27,678 nucleotides of DNA from a virus (IMGVR_UViG_2698536372_000020); one strand, 5' to 3'. Counted from the first letter of the stretch, positions 3,240 through 11,769 are shown. Numbers and translations: made by a program. Notes: a model not told the origin generated them from the sequence alone.

Positions 3240-3569
3240 CTATGCCACGACCTGTTCAAAATCTGCCGTTATGGTTACCCACAGCGCCCCCACGCTTGCC
3301 GACCATTTACGACAAACCACCCTGATCGGTTTCCAGTCATAAGGTGGCGTCCACTGAAATGCACGGACGCCACCGTGCCGTTCCAGAAAGGCTTTTAAAG
3401 ATGGGTGGTCACATTTACGAACACGTATCGTCACGCTGTAAGTCGACAACTGGTTATTCAGTCCCGCCGCACGACGCTGTTCATAACCATCGCCCAGCTT
3501 CACTGTCACCACTTTCGGCTCTGATACCACATTCATATCCGGGCGCACTTTCCAGTGAAACGTCTCCAT
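3240..3569 (-). CDS. M: Minor tail protein M
   Basis: 109-aa ORF (METFHWKVRPDMNVVSEPKVVTVKLGDGYEQRRAAGL...), same size and position as lambda gpM; its start overlaps the H stop at 3569. Confidence 0.88.
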   Translation of the reverse strand: METFHWKVRPDMNVVSEPKVVTVKLGDGYEQRRAAGLNNQLSTYSVTIRVRKCDHPSLKAFLERHGGVRAFQWTPPYDWKPIRVVCRKWSASVGALWVTITADFEQVVA

Positions 3570-6500
3570 TACCGATATGCTCCACTTAACCGACCACCAT
3601 CACGGGCCTGCTGTTGCATAAAGTCCGCTGCCGCTTTTTTCCCGAGGTCATAAACCGCCTTCAGGGCAGCCGGACCTATCTGCCCGTTCGTGCCATCGTT
3701 ATTGATCTCGATGTTGTACTGCGGGGAAAACATCGCCATACCTGACCCCCCAATATCCGCCACAACCCCCAGCTTACCGTCAGCACCACGACGCAATGGC
3801 AGAATGGCTTCAGGTCCCGCTTCCCCCATCACACCCGCGCCTTTTGCAAAAGCAAAAAACGTCGGACGGTTAACCACCGTGCCACTGTAACGACTCAAAT
3901 CAGCAGACTGATAAATCCCCCCATTGGCATTCAGGGAAAGGCTGCTGAGATCAAATCCCAGTACACTGCCAATCCCTTTTATCGATTTCATCATGGTTGC
4001 CTGCGCCAGGATTTTCGCCATATCTGACAGCACAGAAGAGGTGAAGGATTTGAAATTGAGTTTGCCGGTAGTGACAAAAGTTGCCAGGCCATTTCCCATG
4101 TTGCTGAAGGCTGACGAGAACACCTGTTCTGCTGTTTCTGCCGTATTATCTGCATCCACGGTAAAATCCTGAAATGCACGCAGGACTCCGTTTTTCCAGT
4201 TACCCTGCACAACTTCAAGCTGTTGCCAGTAACGGCGATTCTCATTCAGTTGTCGGTTCAGGCTCTCCGTCAGCGCCTGCTCGGCCTTTCTGTAGTCATC
4301 CGTGTTATATGTCCCTTTCTGCTCACTATCCCGCCTCAACTGCTCCAGCTGTTGCTGGTATTTCTGGCGAAGACTCAGTTGTACCTGATATCGCTGTCGC
4401 TGCTGATCACCCATACCCACCGTGGCGATATCCAGGTCATGTTGCTGACGCTGAGCGCGCTCTTCTTCAGCCAGTTGACTGGTCAGCTGAATTGTTTTTT
4501 TCTTCAGCTCGTTGAGTGCCGTCTGTTTCTGAAGCTCCTGCTGTTTTACATCCAGCAGCGTCAGTGCCTGAATCAGTTCATCTTTACGGGCCAGCACACT
4601 CTTTTCATCTGCCGTCAGTTTTTTCCCGTCCAGGTCGCTGATGCGCTGCTGCAGAGCCAGAAGCTGTTTATGCGCTTCTGTCATCCTTTCCGTGGCAATG
4701 CCTGCTGACTGTCTGGCAGCAGCAATCTGTCCTTCCACCTGTGCCTGTTGCTGACTGTACTGCAGCAATAACCGGGTGGCCTCATCATTACGGGTTTCGC
4801 GTGTTTTTTTCTTACCGGATGCCAGGGCTTTCTCGTAACGTTCATTTTCACGTTGTATCGCCGCATCCCTGACAGCCTGATCGGCGTACTGCATGGCATT
4901 AATACGCGCAATTTCACGCTGATGTCGTGCTGCTTCCGTTTCATTCATCCGGTTCAGTGCAGCATTTTCAGCATTACGGCGTTTCTGTTGCTCCTGATAA
5001 TTCCGCTCTGCCTGCTCTTTTGCATCCTGCAAATCCTTCTGGCGTTTTTTCTCCTGAAGATCGTTAAGACGCTGCTGATCGTATTCAACCTGAGAAGATG
5101 ATGCCGTCCAGGGGAGTCTTTTCGCCCGCGACACTTTCTCCTGTAAAGCGGCAATCTGTTCATCCAGCGAGTCTTCACGACCAATATTCATGGCCGCATC
5201 CCAGAAACGACTCCACAAATCAGACAGATACTTCAGCGTACTGCCAAGCGCATTGAGGTTATTATCAATATCCGCAGTACGCCGACCGGTTTCCTCTGCC
5301 AGTGCAGACATGGCTATCCGTGCAGCATCACTGGACCGCCCCTGCTCCCCAAGGACGCGTATCTGCTCAAGCTGAGTGGCAGTAAGAAAATGCAGCTCAT
5401 TGTCCAGAGCCTTCGCGGCATTTACAGGATCATCCTTCAGCCGCTTAAACTGATTTATGGTATCGCTGACCGACTGGCCAACCGATCGCTCCATCTGTGC
5501 GGCAACTCTCGCCACCATACCGATATCGTTTCCACGAAATGCACCACTCCCCACCACCTGAGCCAGCGCACCGGCTGCAGCATGTTGCGTGATACCATTC
5601 CCGGAAATAGCACGACTGAGCGTCCACAGCTGCCCGGCAGTGACTCCGGCATAATGCCCCGTCAGCGACAACTGGCGGTTAAATTCTTCCCCCTCCTTCT
5701 GACCGTCATACCAGGCTTTACCCAGACCATAGACGGCCGCGGCAATACCGCCAATAACCCCGCCAAGCATCATGCCTTTCGGTGACATCAGTGTGTCTAT
5801 CCATCCGGCACGGTTAGCCAGCGTTATCCCGGATCCCCTCAGCGCCCCTAAATTGCCGCGGGCCAGTTCACCTATCAGAACGCCTATCTCCTGGCGGGCT
5901 GCTGCACTTTTCAGACCCAGCGAATGCGTGGCTTTTCCTGCCTGCTCCATTTTGCGGATATACACTTCTGCAGCACTGCTTACCCCCAGCTGGGCTGCCT
6001 TAGCACGAAGCAACTCAGAAGATGAAAGATTCAGGCGGGTTGCCTGCTCTTTAAGCTGACGGATAAACGCCACTTTCTGTCGGGTAGCCTCTTCCTCAGC
6101 CTGTGTAAGAACACGGGTTTTCGCAGTAACCTCAGAAATCAGCGCCAGATAATCCTGCTGACCAATCCCGCCACTGTTTCTGGCCTGTCGGATCTGCTGC
6201 TGAATACGCTGTAATTCCTGCAGCCCCGCACTGGCCTGTTTCACACTGTCAATCTGACGATAAAACGCAGCAGCCGCTTTATCCTGAGCCTCCGCCAGAG
6301 CCATGGCCTGCGCCTGTTCCTCGCGCATTTTCTGGCTCAGTGCCTCCATGCGCTGGCGGGTTTTCTCCACCTCGCGGGCCATGCGTTCATGAGCCTGTGC
6401 GTTCTTCTCCACCGTCTGCGCATGGACGGATGCGGCTGTTGCAGCCGAAGAAGCTGCCTGCGTTGTCTGCCGGGCGGCCTGAGTCTGACGCTCCATAAAA

Positions 6501-6634
6501 CGCTGCATACGGGCAGAAGACCGTTCTGCATCGCTGGCTGCACCATTCAGAAGGTTTTTGATACGGGGAATTTCATTTTTAAACTCTGCCGCATCAATCC
6601 CCAAATCAATGACCAGGTTGGCTATCTGGTCCAT
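3569..6634 (-). CDS. H: Tail tape measure protein H
   Basis: Long coiled-coil-rich ORF; C-terminus NNDGTNGQIGPAALKAVYDLGKKAAADFMQQQARDGG matches the lambda gpH C-terminus. Start placed at ATG 6634 (MDQIANLVIDLGIDAAEF), preceded by GGAGGTG; the track start is 6664. Confidence 0.88.
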   Translation of the reverse strand: MDQIANLVIDLGIDAAEFKNEIPRIKNLLNGAASDAERSSARMQRFMERQTQAARQTTQAASSAATAASVHAQTVEKNAQAHERMAREVEKTRQRMEALSQKMREEQAQAMALAEAQDKAAAAFYRQIDSVKQASAGLQELQRIQQQIRQARNSGGIGQQDYLALISEVTAKTRVLTQAEEEATRQKVAFIRQLKEQATRLNLSSSELLRAKAAQLGVSSAAEVYIRKMEQAGKATHSLGLKSAAARQEIGVLIGELARGNLGALRGSGITLANRAGWIDTLMSPKGMMLGGVIGGIAAAVYGLGKAWYDGQKEGEEFNRQLSLTGHYAGVTAGQLWTLSRAISGNGITQHAAAGALAQVVGSGAFRGNDIGMVARVAAQMERSVGQSVSDTINQFKRLKDDPVNAAKALDNELHFLTATQLEQIRVLGEQGRSSDAARIAMSALAEETGRRTADIDNNLNALGSTLKYLSDLWSRFWDAAMNIGREDSLDEQIAALQEKVSRAKRLPWTASSSQVEYDQQRLNDLQEKKRQKDLQDAKEQAERNYQEQQKRRNAENAALNRMNETEAARHQREIARINAMQYADQAVRDAAIQRENERYEKALASGKKKTRETRNDEATRLLLQYSQQQAQVEGQIAAARQSAGIATERMTEAHKQLLALQQRISDLDGKKLTADEKSVLARKDELIQALTLLDVKQQELQKQTALNELKKKTIQLTSQLAEEERAQRQQHDLDIATVGMGDQQRQRYQVQLSLRQKYQQQLEQLRRDSEQKGTYNTDDYRKAEQALTESLNRQLNENRRYWQQLEVVQGNWKNGVLRAFQDFTVDADNTAETAEQVFSSAFSNMGNGLATFVTTGKLNFKSFTSSVLSDMAKILAQATMMKSIKGIGSVLGFDLSSLSLNANGGIYQSADLSRYSGTVVNRPTFFAFAKGAGVMGEAGPEAILPLRRGADGKLGVVADIGGSGMAMFSPQYNIEINNDGTNGQIGPAALKAVYDLGKKAAADFMQQQARDGGRLSGAYR

Positions 6635-6958
6635 AACGCACACCTCCGGAAATACCTTCCCCAAGATGCATCAGTTCTTCGTCCGTTCGCTCCGGTATCC
6701 CGTTCTCTTCCGGTAAAAGGCTGAAATCAGCCACCGCAGCATCACTGCTGCCGGACACCATTCTCACGATCAATGCCTTCAGCGAGGCAAACTGCGCATC
6801 CATCCACACATCACTGAAGCTCTGCATCCGGAAATAATCGCCCCACTCACCAAGCTCAGTGGCCGACATTTCCGACAGCATCCGCCGCCAGTCTGCCCGC
6901 CGGAACTCCCGGGCAAGCCGCATGACAAACTGCATTTCCCGCGTCAGGACTTTTCCGG
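6606..6958 (-). CDS. T: T-frame part of the G-T tail assembly chaperone, predicted to be made as a G-T fusion by -1 frameshift near the end of G
   Basis: The -1 frame relative to G is open from 6968 to 6606 and overlaps the last 8 codons of G. Same gene order (V, G, T, H) as lambda, where G-T is made by programmed frameshift. The exact slip position is not established. Confidence 0.55.
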
Positions 6959-7333
6959 CGTCAGCGCCTCATGCTCATCATCCACGGCATTATCAATGGC
7001 CCCCATACCGCTCAGCGACAGAACCATCTCCGCCCCCGCACCCAGGGCATCATACGACCATGTTGTAATAACGGATGCGCAAAGCGTCTCTACATCCTTA
7101 GACTGATCCGCATTCCACAGTGAGCGGGAAACCAGCCAGGCATTGATATCCATCCCCATCCGCAGAAAAGCAATCTGTCGTTCAGCCTCCGGCAGTTCTC
7201 CCTCCCCGGCATCAAACTTTGCCGTTCGCTGCTGAACAAACGTCAGATATTCAATTCTCTGCAGCCCGGACAGCTCACTGAGCACCACGGACTGTTTTTC
7301 ATAATTAAACGTGTCCTGTTTCAGAAACATCAT
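6944..7333 (-). CDS. G: Tail assembly chaperone G
   Basis: Start placed at ATG 7333 (MMFLKQDTFNYEKQSVVLSELSGLQRIEYL...), preceded by GGTGGAG; resembles lambda gpG (…VTLSELSALQRIEHL…). The track start 7372 lacks an SD and crowds the V stop. Confidence 0.82.
   Translation of the reverse strand: MMFLKQDTFNYEKQSVVLSELSGLQRIEYLTFVQQRTAKFDAGEGELPEAERQIAFLRMGMDINAWLVSRSLWNADQSKDVETLCASVITTWSYDALGAGAEMVLSLSGMGAIDNAVDDEHEALTPEKS
6950..6958 (-). other. Candidate -1 frameshift (slippery) site for G-T, minus-strand CCGGAAAAG
   Basis: A-rich run 11 codons inside the open T-frame and just upstream of the G stop. It resembles but is not identical to the lambda heptamer GGGAAAG as I recall it. Confidence 0.4.
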
Positions 7334-7346
7334 GTTCTCCACCTGC

Positions 7347-7370
7347 AAAAAAGCCCCGAATAACCGGGGC
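7347..7370 (-). terminator. Intrinsic terminator/attenuator between major tail gene V and chaperone gene G
   Basis: Minus-strand GC stem GCCCCG / CGGGGC (6 bp, 6-nt loop) immediately followed by six T, lying between the V stop (7391) and G start (7333). Confidence 0.5.
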
Positions 7371-7390
7371 AAATGATGAGTATCGTCCTG

Positions 7391-8134
7391 TTAACCTGCT
7401 GCGCTGACAGTCACCGCAGTCACAGCCACAAAATTCCCGTCAGCGGTCATGCCCACAATGCTGACACTGCCCTGCTTCACGCCTTTTACCGTGGCCACAA
7501 GTCCGTTCAGGGTAACCGTGGCAGTCTGTGGATCTGACGAATGCACACTGATCGCTTTGTCACTGGCTCCGTCAGGTTTTACTGTAAAGGTCAGCGTGGT
7601 GGTTGCTCCCACTTTTACACTGGCAGACGCCGGTGATACTGTCAGCCCGGTAACGCTCACGGTTTCAGTGCCTTCCTCTGCCAGATACGGACGCCCCACA
7701 CCGCTGATTTTCACAGTGCGGGTCATCACGTCTTTTGAGGCAATGGTTTTACCCAGTGAGCTCAGCCAGCCACGGAAAACATCAACAGTGCCGTTGGGAT
7801 ATTTGATACGAAACGCGCAGACTTCACCGGAGTCGAACAACTGAACCAGTTTTTTCTGCCCGCTGTCACCCGGACGCCAGGCCAGCGTCGCCGAAGTATC
7901 ACCAACGGATTTCTGCCCCTGGGTTGTCGTTTTCCAGTCTGCATCTTCATCATCGAGATAAGTGTCATCTTCTGCATCAGCGGTCATTTCGCCAGGTTGC
8001 AGATCCTTCACCATCGCAAGACGCAGCCAGTCAGTGTCCGACAAAGGGTTCGCAAACGCATCGCCGTTGCCGGTATACATCCAGAACGTCGTCCCCGCAC
8101 CTTTCGTCTTTGCCAGTGGATTTGGTGTGGTCAT
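7391..8134 (-). CDS. V: Major tail protein V with C-terminal Ig-like (Big_2-type) domain
   Basis: Start placed at ATG 8134 (MTTPNPLAKTKGAGTTFWMY...), preceded by TAAGGAGGTGG. The C-terminal beta-rich repeat (VTVSPASASVKVGATTTLTFTVKPDG...) is typical of Ig-like tail domains. Confidence 0.85.
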   Translation of the reverse strand: MTTPNPLAKTKGAGTTFWMYTGNGDAFANPLSDTDWLRLAMVKDLQPGEMTADAEDDTYLDDEDADWKTTTQGQKSVGDTSATLAWRPGDSGQKKLVQLFDSGEVCAFRIKYPNGTVDVFRGWLSSLGKTIASKDVMTRTVKISGVGRPYLAEEGTETVSVTGLTVSPASASVKVGATTTLTFTVKPDGASDKAISVHSSDPQTATVTLNGLVATVKGVKQGSVSIVGMTADGNFVAVTAVTVSAAG

Positions 8135-9810: not shown

Positions 9811-11769
9811 TTACGCCGTACATTTCACCAGGCCGCGGTGATCAACTGGCGCAACACCAGCGTCAATACGCACTTTCGTTGTCACGCCATCCACACTGAA
9901 GCCCTCCATCTGATCAATATATGGCGTATCCACACCGTTGAGATAAGCCACTTCAATCGTATCGGAGCCTTTGGACGCAGCCAGGTAGAAGGTGGTCTGG
10001 CTGTTATCATCAAGACGAGGCTCTGCAATAACGGTCGCAAAATCTTTCACCGGGTTAATAATACCGGCGTTAATGTCAGCCCCCTTGACACTTGAGGAGC
10101 GAATGACCTGGTTAGCAACAGACTCCATCGCCGTCGGTACCAGTACGAACGCAGGACGAATATTCAGATGACGCTCACCCTCTTTCTGAACGCGCATCAA
10201 CTGGCGGGCTTTATCCAGCGATGCCACGTCCATTGCCGCGCTCTCCAGTACGTTTGCATGTTTCGCTTTATCGAACAGACTTACATTATCTGTGGAGATT
10301 TTCGGGTTAGACGTCAGAATGGCATAAACCAGATCGGCAATAGTGGATTTCGCCGCACGGCCCAGCTTCATCGGGACATCGGTCAGCATATTCAGATCAT
10401 CATTGATAATGGCCTGACGGGTGATACTGAACAGCTCGCCATAGGTCGCCAGTGCAATAGTGGCCTGTTTATCTCCGGTGGTGACGTATTTATATTCTGC
10501 CCCTTCACGCACCTGACGCAGAGCACTGAAGCCCCCCATACCCACACGATGGGCAATTTTAAAATCAGACAACTGACCTTTCCGCGTCCACTGTTCATAG
10601 GTTTCAGGGGCATCTTCCCAGCCCTGCAGAATGGCTTTGTTCGCAACATCCAGCAGAATATTACCGAAGTCAGACGTACTGTGTGTGAACGCCGCACCGA
10701 CCATCTGCATCGGGTTATAACTGGAAACACCAATACCACGTTCAGTCAGTGACATACGGGCATATTCACGCAGGGTCATCCCGTTGTAGACATTATCACG
10801 TTCAGTTTTTTCAAACCCGGCGCGCGCCATCAGCGCCTGGCGGATCCCGTCCCCCACAAAATTACCGTTACCGGCATAAATATGAGCCGGGGTATTTTTA
10901 TTGGATGGCGTGGACTCGCGCCCCATCTCGTTCAACAGCTTTTCGCGGGCCTGCTCCAGCGAACATTCAGGATCGGCAAGACACTGAGCCTGCAACGACT
11001 GATAACGCCCGCCAAACATGGCAAACAGATCATTAATACCGTTTACACGCGCTTTTTGCTCTGCCAGGACCTGCGCACGGATGCTGTTTTCATCCACCAC
11101 GGGTGCTGCTGCCTGCACTGGCGTCCGGGAGGCTGCAGGTCCATCATCCTGTACGCGTGGAGCACTGTTGCGTGGCGGAGTAATCATATTTCGAATGGAT
11201 TCCGGCATCTTTTTAAATTCCTCTGTACGTTTTGACTGAATACATGCCATTGCCTTAACGGCTGGTGTCACCTGATCAGCAAATCCCTGTGCCAGACATT
11301 CGGCACCGGACATCCAGGTCTCATCCGCCAGCATGGCAGCAATTTCATCGGTGGTTTTCCCGGTTTTCTGTGCATAAGCGGGTAACAGAACCGCCTCAAC
11401 TTTATCGAGCAGGTCGGCATAGGTGCGCATGTCCTCCGCATCACCGCCCGTAAAGCCAAATGGTTTATGAATCATCATGAAGGAGTTTTCCGGCATAATG
11501 ACCGGGTTTCCTACCATCGCAATGACCGACGCCATTGACGCCGCCACACCGTCGACATAAACGGTAATGGACGCACCATGTGTTTTCAGCGCATTAAAAA
11601 TGGCGATGCCTTCAAAGACATCGCCACCCGGTGAATTAATATGGAGATTAATGTGGGTGATATCGCCCAGTGCATTCAGATCACTGATAAACTGCTTCGC
11701 TGTAACACCCCAGAAACCAATCTCGTCATAAATATAAATATCCGCGTCACTCTGGTGACCAGCCTGCAT
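9811..11769 (-). CDS. Prohead protease (ClpP-like) fused to HK97-fold major capsid protein
   Basis: Start placed at ATG 11769 (MQAGHQSDADIYIYDEIGFWGV...). The N-terminal ~200 aa show ClpP/S14-peptidase-like motifs (HINSPGGDVFEGIAIFNAL...MASVIAMVG...MMIHKP); the C-terminal ~350 aa resemble a major capsid protein. The track start 12030 lies deep inside the portal gene. Confidence 0.78.
   Translation of the reverse strand: MQAGHQSDADIYIYDEIGFWGVTAKQFISDLNALGDITHINLHINSPGGDVFEGIAIFNALKTHGASITVYVDGVAASMASVIAMVGNPVIMPENSFMMIHKPFGFTGGDAEDMRTYADLLDKVEAVLLPAYAQKTGKTTDEIAAMLADETWMSGAECLAQGFADQVTPAVKAMACIQSKRTEEFKKMPESIRNMITPPRNSAPRVQDDGPAASRTPVQAAAPVVDENSIRAQVLAEQKARVNGINDLFAMFGGRYQSLQAQCLADPECSLEQAREKLLNEMGRESTPSNKNTPAHIYAGNGNFVGDGIRQALMARAGFEKTERDNVYNGMTLREYARMSLTERGIGVSSYNPMQMVGAAFTHSTSDFGNILLDVANKAILQGWEDAPETYEQWTRKGQLSDFKIAHRVGMGGFSALRQVREGAEYKYVTTGDKQATIALATYGELFSITRQAIINDDLNMLTDVPMKLGRAAKSTIADLVYAILTSNPKISTDNVSLFDKAKHANVLESAAMDVASLDKARQLMRVQKEGERHLNIRPAFVLVPTAMESVANQVIRSSSVKGADINAGIINPVKDFATVIAEPRLDDNSQTTFYLAASKGSDTIEVAYLNGVDTPYIDQMEGFSVDGVTTKVRIDAGVAPVDHRGLVKCTA

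What the first reader, a model, noticed from the sequence alone, without database searches (positions are those of the whole stretch)
6944..6968. G-T chaperone overlap lacks the canonical lambda slippery heptamer
The -1 frame is open across the last 8 codons of G and continues to 6606, so a G-T fusion is expected. The only A-rich run in the overlap is CCGGAAAAG (6950-6958) rather than the lambda GGGAAAG I recall, suggesting a variant slip site or mechanism.
Basis: partly seen in the sequence, partly recalled or inferred. Interest (0 to 1): 0.45.

Follow-up and report, generated by a model that had tools for sequence, protein, structure and literature searches.

The report
Tail chaperone G-T frameshift site
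This is the ordinary ribosome-slipping site through which a lambda-like E. coli prophage should make its fused tail-assembly chaperone (G-T); its slippery sequence GGAAAAG differs from phage lambda's GGGAAAG by one base, is the commonest version in the relatives sampled here, and is already annotated as a frameshift site in phages N15 and LLS.

Summary
On the minus strand, G (7333-6944) is overlapped by the -1 frame, which opens at 6968 and runs to 6606. The only slip-prone sequence in that overlap is G_GAA_AAG (6956-6950), not lambda's G_GGA_AAG.

It is not a new mechanism. G and T are homologues of lambda G and T (Pfam PF06894 and PF06223). The heptamer sits at exactly the position of lambda's and differs by one base.

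Across 27 sequence clusters of relatives:
- The site is always NNA_AAR, mostly G_GNA_AAR.
- GGAAAAG is the commonest form (13 clusters). Lambda's form is in one.
- Conservation of the T-frame protein starts exactly at the heptamer.
- The ATG at 6935 is present in only 2 clusters, so T is reached by a -1 shift, not by its own start.

The GenBank records of phage N15 and phage LLS already mark GGAAAAG as the -1 slippery sequence. Gifsy-2 has the identical local sequence and is annotated as a frameshift hybrid.

Open points: in vitro, G_GAA_AAG was used as the "less slippery" comparison sequence. An SD-like GAGG lies 10 nt upstream, the spacing seen in a dnaX-mimic mRNA, but the evidence that it stimulates is only suggestive. 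No downstream structure was found.

Verdict: a known kind, not annotated in this lineage, of low interest.

The parts
6944..7333 (-). Gene G, tail assembly chaperone. 129 aa from ATG 7333, or 128 aa from ATG 7330. Stop TGA at 6946-6944.
   Evidence: Translation. Pfam PF06894 Phage_TAC_2, E=3.8e-40. 32% identity to lambda G. RefSeq names it 'phage tail assembly chaperone G'.
6606..6968 (-). T reading frame, -1 relative to G. Open from 6968, stop TGA at 6608-6606. Only the part from 6950 downstream (114 codons) is predicted to be translated, as the C-terminal half of GT.
   Evidence: Translation. Pfam PF06223 Phage_tail_T, E=5e-15. 38% identity to lambda T. The coding signature starts at the heptamer.
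6950..6956 (-). Slippery heptamer G_GAA_AAG in the 0 frame, read as GGA_AAA_G after the -1 shift. Predicted junction: ...ALTPEK|VLTREMQF...; GT is 242 aa (128 + 114).
   Evidence: Sequence. Ungapped T-frame alignment with lambda and 25 other clusters. The same heptamer is annotated as a -1 slippery sequence in N15 and LLS. GT length.
6969..6971 (-). TGA closing the -1 frame upstream. It sets the 5' limit of the window in which the shift can occur.
6967..6970 (-). SD-like GAGG, 10 nt upstream of the heptamer. A candidate stimulator, not shown to act.
   Evidence: Anti-SD duplex energy -5.6 to -5.8 kcal/mol. Positional enrichment across clusters. Same 10-nt spacing as the SD-like AGGGAG in the dnaX-mimic mRNA printed in PMC6924986.
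6933..6935 (-). ATG used by database annotations as the start of a stand-alone T. Probably an internal Met codon of GT.
   Evidence: Annotated as the T start in RefSeq and Tritos. Met in only 2 of 27 clusters; elsewhere L, R, H or I.
3569..6634 (-). Tape measure protein (lambda H homologue). Its ATG at 6634 overlaps the end of T by 29 nt.
   Evidence: Pfam TMP_2, Tape_meas_lam_C and TMP_4.
7345..7370 (-). Terminator-like hairpin plus T-run between the major tail gene V and G.
   Evidence: Equivalent features are annotated in phage Ayreon and N15.

Best explanation
This is the programmed -1 ribosomal frameshift site of a lambda-type tail assembly chaperone pair in an mEp460/cdtI-like lambdoid prophage of E. 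coli.

Most ribosomes translate G to its stop at 6944. A minority slip back one base on G_GAA_AAG (6956-6950). tRNA-Lys re-pairs from AAG to AAA, a cognate match. The neighbouring tRNA-Glu moves from GAA to GGA, giving G:C, a G.U pair at the middle position, and A:U. Translation then continues in the T frame (GTC CTG ACG ...) to 6606 and yields a 242-aa GT fusion with the junction ...TPEK|VLTRE....

By analogy with lambda, the G part binds the tape measure protein and the T part recruits the major tail protein. A low GT:G ratio is set by the slip frequency.

Shown here: gene identity, frame geometry, positional homology of the site, family-wide conservation of NNA_AAR, T-frame coding that begins at the heptamer, and prior annotation of the same heptamer in N15 and LLS.

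Inferred: that slippage really happens here, its frequency, tandem versus single-tRNA slippage, and any help from the upstream GAGG or the nearby stop codon.
For: 1. Gene identity. G is PF06894 and T is PF06223, lying between the lambda-type major tail protein and the tape measure protein. Identity to lambda G and T is 32% and 38%.

2. Frame geometry. T is in the -1 frame. That frame opens only 22 nt before the last sense codon of G and has no ATG, GTG or TTG before 6935.

3. Positional homology. In an ungapped T-frame alignment, the window's GGAAAAG lies on lambda's GGGAAAG (AGK|V... in both).

4. Family-wide pattern. 429 loci reduced to 148 unique contexts and 27 clusters. The heptamer by cluster is GGAAAAG 13, GGCAAAA 5, GGAAAAA 2 (one of them mixed with GGCAAAA), AGAAAAG 4, GGGAAAG 1, GGGAAAA 1 and GGTAAAG 1. 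The invariant is NNA_AAR. All 34 unique contexts in the window's own cluster keep GGAAAAG.

5. P-site signal. Heptamer base 1 is G in 23 of 27 clusters even though the codon it ends differs (CCG, CTG, TTG, ATG, GCG, AAG). That points to nucleotide-level selection for re-pairing of the P-site tRNA.

6. Coding signature. In the T frame, K is invariant, codon +5 is R in 23 of 27, and codon +6 is E in 27 of 27 with GAA/GAG variation. Upstream of the heptamer the T frame is unconserved and contains stops.

7. Prior annotation.
- N15 marks GGAAAAG as 'slippery sequence for -1 translational frameshift'.
- LLS has a joined CDS plus a feature 'minus-one programmed translational frameshift site GGAAAAG'.
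- Gifsy-2 has the identical ACGCCGGAAAAGTCCTGA, and its T is annotated as part of a frameshift hybrid.
- phi80 and mEp237 also carry GGAAAAG.

8. Literature. A_AAG is the most shift-prone tetramer in E. coli. NNA_AAG motifs and intermediate heptamers are described. G:U re-pairing of tRNA-Glu from GAA to GGA has been proposed for tail chaperone sites.
Against: No experimental detection of GT for this lineage was found. Every database record of this lineage annotates T as a separate ORF. No correctly joined GT protein is in the protein collection; the only G+T single ORFs are singleton deletion fusions.

In a reconstituted E. coli system, AUG GAA AAG (that is, G_GAA_AAG) was chosen as the 'unfavorable' sequence and gave mainly 0-frame product (PMC6924986). 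A_AAG tetramers without a stimulator are near background in vivo (PMC4066793).

No significant downstream RNA structure was found in this clade: z = -0.5, and +0.9 and -0.4. Rfam gave nothing. So the source of adequate efficiency is unproven.
Confidence: 0.85

Rival explanations
1. T is made as a stand-alone 109-aa protein from ATG 6935, for example by re-initiation 8 nt after the G stop. No fusion is needed.
For: An in-frame ATG lies 8 nt downstream of the G stop. RefSeq, mEp460 and Tritos annotate T this way.
Against: The ATG codon is Met in only 2 of 27 clusters. T-frame codons upstream of it (K, R, E) are conserved with synonymous third-position variation. The frame always stays open back across the end of G. 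In 17 of 27 clusters no ATG, GTG or TTG was seen in the T frame in the codons just after the heptamer; this was read by eye and not counted. There is no good SD at proper spacing: GGGAA abuts the ATG. N15, LLS and Gifsy-2 annotators treat the pair as a frameshift.
Confidence: 0.06
2. The shift is a single-tRNA event. Only tRNA-Lys slips on A_AAG, either in the P site while the next codon waits or by the hexanucleotide NNA_AAG route. tRNA-Glu does not re-pair productively.
For: The family invariant is only NNA_AAR. The P-site codon varies (GAA, GCA, GGA, GUA), and 4 clusters carry A_GAA_AAG, one of them with a C_GAA_AAG variant. In 17 of 27 clusters a stop codon follows the heptamer directly, which would favour a P-site slip during slow termination. 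NNA_AAG hexanucleotide shifting is established.
Against: G at heptamer positions 1 and 2 is kept in 23 of 27 clusters, regardless of the amino acid of the preceding codon. That is what selection for first-position re-pairing of the P-site tRNA would give. In this window the stop is one codon further away. This is a sub-variant of the main explanation, not an alternative identity.
Confidence: 0.3
3. The fusion arises from transcriptional slippage by RNA polymerase on the A4 run, not from ribosomal slippage.
For: The site contains a run of four A residues.
Against: From established knowledge, productive RNA polymerase slippage in bacteria needs runs of roughly 7 or more A or T. Here the run is 4, and 4-5 in relatives. 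The conserved feature is codon-phased (NNA_AAR), which fits tRNA re-pairing.
Confidence: 0.02
4. The overlap is fortuitous. T in this prophage is a decaying remnant and no GT is made.
For: No frameshift is annotated in any record of this lineage.
Against: The locus is 95-100% conserved in 1847 of 5426 complete E. coli genomes and is present in plaque-forming phages such as mEp460, Tritos, Ayreon and HannyBb. T matches its Pfam domain over the whole profile, positions 1-73 of 73. Third codon positions vary about 2.5 times more than first and second positions across clusters.
Confidence: 0.02

Closest known systems
Phage lambda G/GT programmed -1 frameshift (G_GGA_AAG; Levin, Hendrix and Casjens 1993; Xu, Hendrix and Duda 2004, 2013, 2014)
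   Same: Homologous G and T proteins and the same gene order V-G-T-H. T is in the -1 frame overlapping the 3' end of G. The slip site is at the same aligned position, with A_AAG in the A site.
   Different: Heptamer base 3 is A, not G, so the P-site codon is GAA (Glu) rather than GGA (Gly). Post-slip pairing has a G.U at the middle position instead of a third-position wobble. The overlap is 22 nt against 49-61 nt. The 0-frame stop is 1 codon after the heptamer against 5. T is shorter: 120 codons in the open frame against 144.
Phage N15 genes 14/15, and also LLS, phi80, mEp237 and Gifsy-2
   Same: The same family and the same heptamer GGAAAAG at the same position. N15 and LLS records mark it explicitly as the -1 slippery sequence. 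Gifsy-2 has the identical 18-nt local sequence ACGCCGGAAAAGTCCTGA. N15 also has a terminator between V and G.
   Different: T identity to the window is only about 43% for LLS, mEp237 and phi80 and 54% for Gifsy-2; N15 was not compared. The N15/phi80 type has the stop 5 codons after the heptamer and no SD-like element at -10.
NNA_AAG hexanucleotide and intermediate-heptamer -1 sites (IS1222 G_CGA_AAG, IS3 C_CAA_AAG, B. subtilis cdd A_CGA_AAG; G_GA-type sites of insect flaviviruses)
   Same: Slippage of tRNA-Lys from AAG to AAA, with a 5' codon that cannot re-pair perfectly.
   Different: Those IS sites depend on strong downstream pseudoknots or hairpins. None is detectable here.
E. coli dnaX frameshift signal (SD-like AGGGAG, 10 nt, A_AAA_AAG, hairpin)
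   Same: A_AAG in the A site. An SD-like GAGG lies 10 nt upstream of the heptamer, the spacing seen in the dnaX-mimic mRNA.
   Different: The SD-like element is a weak 4-mer. There is no downstream hairpin. The expected efficiency is a few percent or less, against about 50-80% for dnaX.

Membership tests
Lambda-type tail assembly chaperone pair G/GT made by -1 programmed frameshifting | The upstream ORF is a gpG-family chaperone. | tested here: met
   PF06894, E=3.8e-40, profile positions 1-123 of 126. 32% identity to lambda G.
Lambda-type tail assembly chaperone pair G/GT made by -1 programmed frameshifting | The downstream ORF is a gpT-family domain in the -1 frame that overlaps the 3' end of G, between the major tail gene and the tape measure gene. 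| tested here: met
   PF06223, E=5e-15. Frame geometry. Neighbours V (Phage_TTP_12) and TMP.
Lambda-type tail assembly chaperone pair G/GT made by -1 programmed frameshifting | A slip-prone sequence lies inside the overlap, conserved in position among relatives. | tested here: met
   G_GAA_AAG at 6956-6950. NNA_AAR is invariant in 27 of 27 clusters at the aligned position.
Lambda-type tail assembly chaperone pair G/GT made by -1 programmed frameshifting | T has no conserved start of its own, and T-frame coding begins at the slip site. | tested here: met
   Met at the window's ATG position in only 2 of 27 clusters. K, R and E are conserved upstream of it.
Lambda-type tail assembly chaperone pair G/GT made by -1 programmed frameshifting | A GT fusion protein is produced at a low ratio to G and is required for tail assembly. 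| not testable with these tools
   Needs a western blot, mass spectrometry or genetics. No correctly joined GT is in the protein collection.
Canonical X_XXY_YYZ tandem-slippage heptamer | Positions 1-3 are identical, so the P-site tRNA re-pairs with only a third-position change. | tested here: not met
   Positions 1-3 are G, G, A. Re-pairing from GAA to GGA puts a G.U at the second position, described as a second-position mismatch in PMC6924986.
Canonical X_XXY_YYZ tandem-slippage heptamer | Positions 4-6 are identical, with cognate A-site re-pairing. | tested here: met
   A_AAG to AAA. It is the best tetramer in E. coli.
NNA_AAG hexanucleotide / 'twofour' non-canonical -1 motifs | AAG (or AAA) is preceded by a codon ending in A. 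The 5' tRNA re-pairs imperfectly or not at all. | tested here: met
   GAA_AAG. The class is described in PMC5009743 and PMC10885494.
dnaX-type stimulated -1 frameshift signal | An SD-like sequence about 10 nt (range 6-17 nt) upstream of the heptamer. | tested here: inconclusive
   GAGG lies 10 nt upstream at -5.6 kcal/mol, but 36% of synonymous recodings do as well. Family-wide, the mean is -5.2, against -3.1 to -3.7 at shifted positions and -4.5 for the synonymous null, P about 0.05. It is absent in lambda, N15 and phi80.
dnaX-type stimulated -1 frameshift signal | A stable hairpin or pseudoknot 5-9 nt downstream. | tested here: not met
   z = -0.5. For this clade z = +0.9 over 50 nt and -0.4 over 80 nt. 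No Rfam match.

The most novel reading that the evidence does not exclude
The sequence that ribosome biochemists use as a poorly slippery comparison, G_GAA_AAG, is the predominant natural GT slip site in lambda-like phages of enterobacteria. On this reading it reaches useful efficiency in vivo without a downstream RNA structure. It would do so through second-position G.U re-pairing of tRNA-Glu, helped by an SD-like element about 10 nt upstream and/or a 0-frame stop codon zero or one codon downstream. That would be a compact, structure-free stimulatory architecture conserved across many clades.
Probability: 0.25. Interest if true: 0.4.

Novelty: already known. Interest (0 to 1): 0.17.

Why it matters
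There are three modest practical points.

1. Annotation. In 1847 of 5426 complete E. coli genomes, and in phages such as mEp460, cdtI, Tritos and Ayreon, T is annotated as a stand-alone ORF from an ATG that is not conserved. The correct product is very probably a 242-aa GT fusion joined at GGAAAAG.

2. Motif finders. Tools that accept only X_XXY_YYZ will miss most sites of this family as sampled here. Only 2 of the 27 clusters have a canonical heptamer.

3. Mechanism. The family offers a natural series, G_GNA_AAR with N = A, C, G or U, with or without an adjacent stop codon or an SD-like element. It could be used to test how second-position mismatches in the P site affect -1 slippage. The published thermodynamic model says it does not cover that case (PMC6787027).

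Tried and rejected
- Downstream stimulatory structure. Folding 6975-6850 gave z = -0.5. The 50-nt and 80-nt segments after the heptamer gave z = +0.9 and -0.4 for this clade. Rejected for this window.
- Rfam scan of 6500-7450 at E<=10 returned only noise hits.
- GGGAAAT at 6940-6934 as a second slip site. It lies after the G stop and is phased as a G_GGA_AAT heptamer only in the third frame, not in G's or T's. Rejected.
- Search for an already joined GT protein. Only four singleton G+T ORFs were found, all caused by internal deletions, none with the TPEK|VLTRE junction.
- Literature search for the string GGAAAAG with frameshifting gave no paper on this phage family. It did turn up PMC6924986, which used it as the less slippery control.
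- Licznar 2003 and Xu 2004 could not be read because they are not held. Where GAA ranks among NNA codons, and Xu's table of sites, could not be checked.
- SD-like stimulator. It is positionally enriched, but mostly explained by the acidic, Ala/Gly-rich tail of G, and it is only marginal against a synonymous-codon null. Kept as a hypothesis only.

Full report
**1. What is in the sequence**

The relevant genes are on the minus strand.
- G runs from ATG 7333 (or 7330) to TGA at 6946-6944 and ends ...GAG GCG CTG ACG CCG GAA AAG TCC TGA.
- The -1 frame has a TGA at 6971-6969. It is then open from 6968: GGC GCT GAC GCC GGA AAA GTC CTG ACG CGG GAA ATG(6935) ... to TGA at 6608-6606.
- The tape measure gene starts at ATG 6634 and overlaps the end of T by 29 nt.

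Every coordinate in the finding checks out: the overlap 6968-6944, CCGGAAAAG at 6958-6950, ATG at 6935, and the end of T at 6606. No GGGAAAG lies in the overlap. In phase, the only slip-prone sequence is G_GAA_AAG (6956-6950). A phase-correct A_AAG occurs at about 0.33% of codons in this window's genes, so finding one in a 7-codon overlap by chance has a probability of about 2%.

**2. Identity of the genes and the element**

- G matches Pfam PF06894 (lambda gpG chaperone, E=3.8e-40).
- The -1 frame matches PF06223 (minor tail protein T, E=5e-15).
- The flanking genes are a lambda-type tail tube protein and a lambda-type tape measure protein.
- Identity to lambda G and T is 32% and 38%.
- The 851-bp G-T segment is 97.6-100% identical to phages mEp460, cdtI, Tritos, Ayreon, HannyBb and others.
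- It occurs in 1847 of 5426 complete E. coli genomes.
- All inspected records annotate T as a separate ORF. RefSeq and Tritos start it at the ATG equivalent to 6935, and Ayreon starts it further downstream. None annotates slippage.

**3. Positional homology with lambda**

Lambda reads ...TCT GCG GGA AAG TGT... in the G frame and continues GTG TTC GAC GGT GAG CTG AGT TTT in the T frame. In the T frame, without gaps:
- lambda: G-K-V-F-D-G-E-L-S-F-A-L-K-L-A-R-E
- window: G-K-V-L-T-R-E-M-Q-F-V-M-R-L-A-R-E

The window's GGAAAAG therefore lies exactly on lambda's GGGAAAG and differs only at heptamer base 3.

**4. Comparison across relatives**

I collected 429 loci with T-protein queries from the window, Proteus, Pantoea, Kluyvera, Providencia and lambda. 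They reduced to 148 unique 257-nt contexts and 27 clusters at 85% identity. This sample was drawn mostly with relatives of the window, so it is not an unbiased survey of the family.

Heptamer at the aligned position, by cluster:

| Heptamer | Clusters |
|---|---|
| GGAAAAG | 13 |
| GGCAAAA | 5 |
| GGAAAAA | 2 (one mixed with GGCAAAA) |
| AGAAAAG | 4 (one also has a CGAAAAG variant) |
| GGGAAAG (lambda) | 1 |
| GGGAAAA | 1 |
| GGTAAAG | 1 |

- The invariant is NNA_AAR, which is the A_AAR tetramer on which tRNA-Lys can re-pair.
- The usual form is G_GNA_AAR.
- All 34 unique contexts of the window's own cluster keep GGAAAAG, while flanking codons vary (TCC/TCA/CCC/CCT after it; GCG/GTG, ACG/ACA/TCG/TTG before it).
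- Heptamer base 1 is G in 23 of 27 clusters, although it is the third base of different codons (CCG, CTG, TTG, ATG, GCG, AAG). This suggests nucleotide-level selection for first-position re-pairing of the P-site tRNA.

**5. Where T-frame coding begins**

Across the 27 representatives:
- Lys at the heptamer is invariant.
- Codon +5 is Arg in 23 of 27.
- Codon +6 is Glu in 27 of 27, with GAA/GAG alternating.
- Codon +9 is Phe in 27 of 27.
- Upstream of the heptamer, the T frame is unconserved and contains stop codons in several clusters.
- The window's ATG (codon +7) is Met in only 2 of 27 clusters. Elsewhere it is Leu, Arg, His or Ile.

So the stretch between the G stop and ATG 6935 is translated in the T frame. 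It has no start codon of its own (GGC GCT GAC GCC GGA AAA GTC CTG ACG CGG GAA). Entry into the T frame must therefore happen by a -1 shift at the heptamer.

**6. Prior knowledge**

- The N15 GenBank record has a misc_feature 'slippery sequence for -1 translational frameshift' at 10027-10033. That sequence reads GGAAAAG.
- Phage LLS has a joined chaperone CDS and a feature 'minus-one programmed translational frameshift site GGAAAAG'.
- Gifsy-2 carries the identical local sequence ACGCCGGAAAAGTCCTGA. Its T is annotated as 'part of G+G' frameshift hybrid protein', with cdtI proteins cited as homologues.
- phi80 and mEp237 also have GGAAAAG.

In the literature:
- A_AAG is the most shift-prone tetramer in E. 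coli (PMC4066793).
- NNA_AAG hexanucleotide sites (IS1222, B. subtilis cdd) and intermediate heptamers are reviewed in PMC5009743. These include the G_GA type in insect flaviviruses and C_CA(A) in IS3.
- PRFect lists a 'twofour' motif among tail-chaperone slip sites. It notes that tRNA-Glu can re-pair from GAA to GGA if G:U pairs are allowed (PMC10885494).

The finding is therefore a known kind of site in a lineage where it has simply not been annotated.

**7. Mechanism and what remains uncertain**

The best-supported model is a -1 ribosomal slip on G_GAA_AAG.
- tRNA-Lys moves from AAG to AAA, a cognate match.
- tRNA-Glu moves from GAA to GGA, giving G:C, G.U and A:U.
- The next codon read is GTC.
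- The predicted product is a 242-aa GT (128 + 114 residues) with the junction TPEK|VLTRE.

Efficiency is the open point.
- Peng et al. used AUG GAA AAG as the unfavourable comparison to G_GGA_AAG and obtained mainly 0-frame product (PMC6924986).
- A_AAG alone is near background without a stimulator.
- Lambda needs only about 1 GT per 30 G.

Tests for stimulators gave the following.
- Downstream structure: none in this clade.
- Upstream SD-like sequence: the window has GAGG at 6970-6967, 10 nt before the heptamer. That is the spacing of AGGGAG in the dnaX-mimic mRNA.
  - Across the 27 clusters, anti-SD affinity peaks at 6-10 nt upstream, with a mean of about -4 kcal/mol against -1.4 background.
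  - The best energy in the 5-12 nt range averages -5.2, against -3.1 to -3.7 at shifted control positions. It is only marginally better than a synonymous-codon null (-4.5, P about 0.05).
  - It is absent in lambda, N15 and phi80. This is suggestive, not established.
- Stop codon: the 0-frame stop follows the heptamer directly in 17 of 27 clusters and after one codon in 8, including this window. A nearby stop may favour slippage. That rests on general knowledge of 'shifty stops' and was not tested.

Whether slippage is tandem or by tRNA-Lys alone cannot be decided from sequence. G_G conservation favours some P-site contribution. The variable middle base and the A_GAA_AAG clade show it is not essential.

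**8. Verdict**

The site is the commonest member of a known family of slip sites, already annotated in N15 and LLS. Its value lies mainly in correcting annotation and as a natural test series for P-site second-position re-pairing. Interest is low.

Noticed in passing
window 7345-7370 (minus strand): A strong terminator-like hairpin, GCCCCGGTTATTCGGGGC followed by TTTTTT, sits between the major tail gene V and G. The same feature is annotated in phage Ayreon and in N15. It may lower transcription of G, T and the tape measure gene relative to V.
   Followed up: partly
window 6606-6650 (minus strand): The tape measure start ATG 6634 and its SD (GGAGGTG) lie inside the conserved C-terminal GGVRYG motif of T, and T runs 29 nt past the start. 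Lambda has two GGVR(F/Y)G motifs in T, and its tape measure gene H starts at the second. In the window, T ends just after the single motif.
   Followed up: no
L198, L189, L141, L127, L139 (Proteus-type and AGAAAAG-type relatives), about 22-75 nt after the heptamer: A long predicted stem (for example AUCCUGCGCC...GGCGCAGGAU, about 11 bp) gives z = -1.8 to -4.5 for the 80 nt after the heptamer (L189 is the weakest). Lambda also scores z = -3.6. The AGAAAAG clade, which has the poorest P-site re-pairing, additionally has an 8-bp hairpin about 8-9 nt downstream. The window's clade has neither.
   Followed up: partly
window about 7219-7225 (minus strand), G codons 37-38: A second phase-correct G_GCA_AAG lies inside G. 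A -1 slip there would meet a TGA two codons later (GGC AAA GTT TGA) and give a truncated product. Conservation in relatives was not checked.
   Followed up: no
proteins P0001, P0002, P0003, P0016: Four singleton ORFs carry both the G and the T domain in one frame because of internal deletions around the junction. They are either assembly errors or natural in-frame G-T fusions.
   Followed up: partly
L086 (MAG labelled Bacillota) and L091 (MAG labelled Proteobacteria, soil): These carry G-T segments whose T proteins are 98-100% identical to the E. coli prophage's. This probably reflects contamination or mis-binning of the metagenome-assembled genomes.
   Followed up: no
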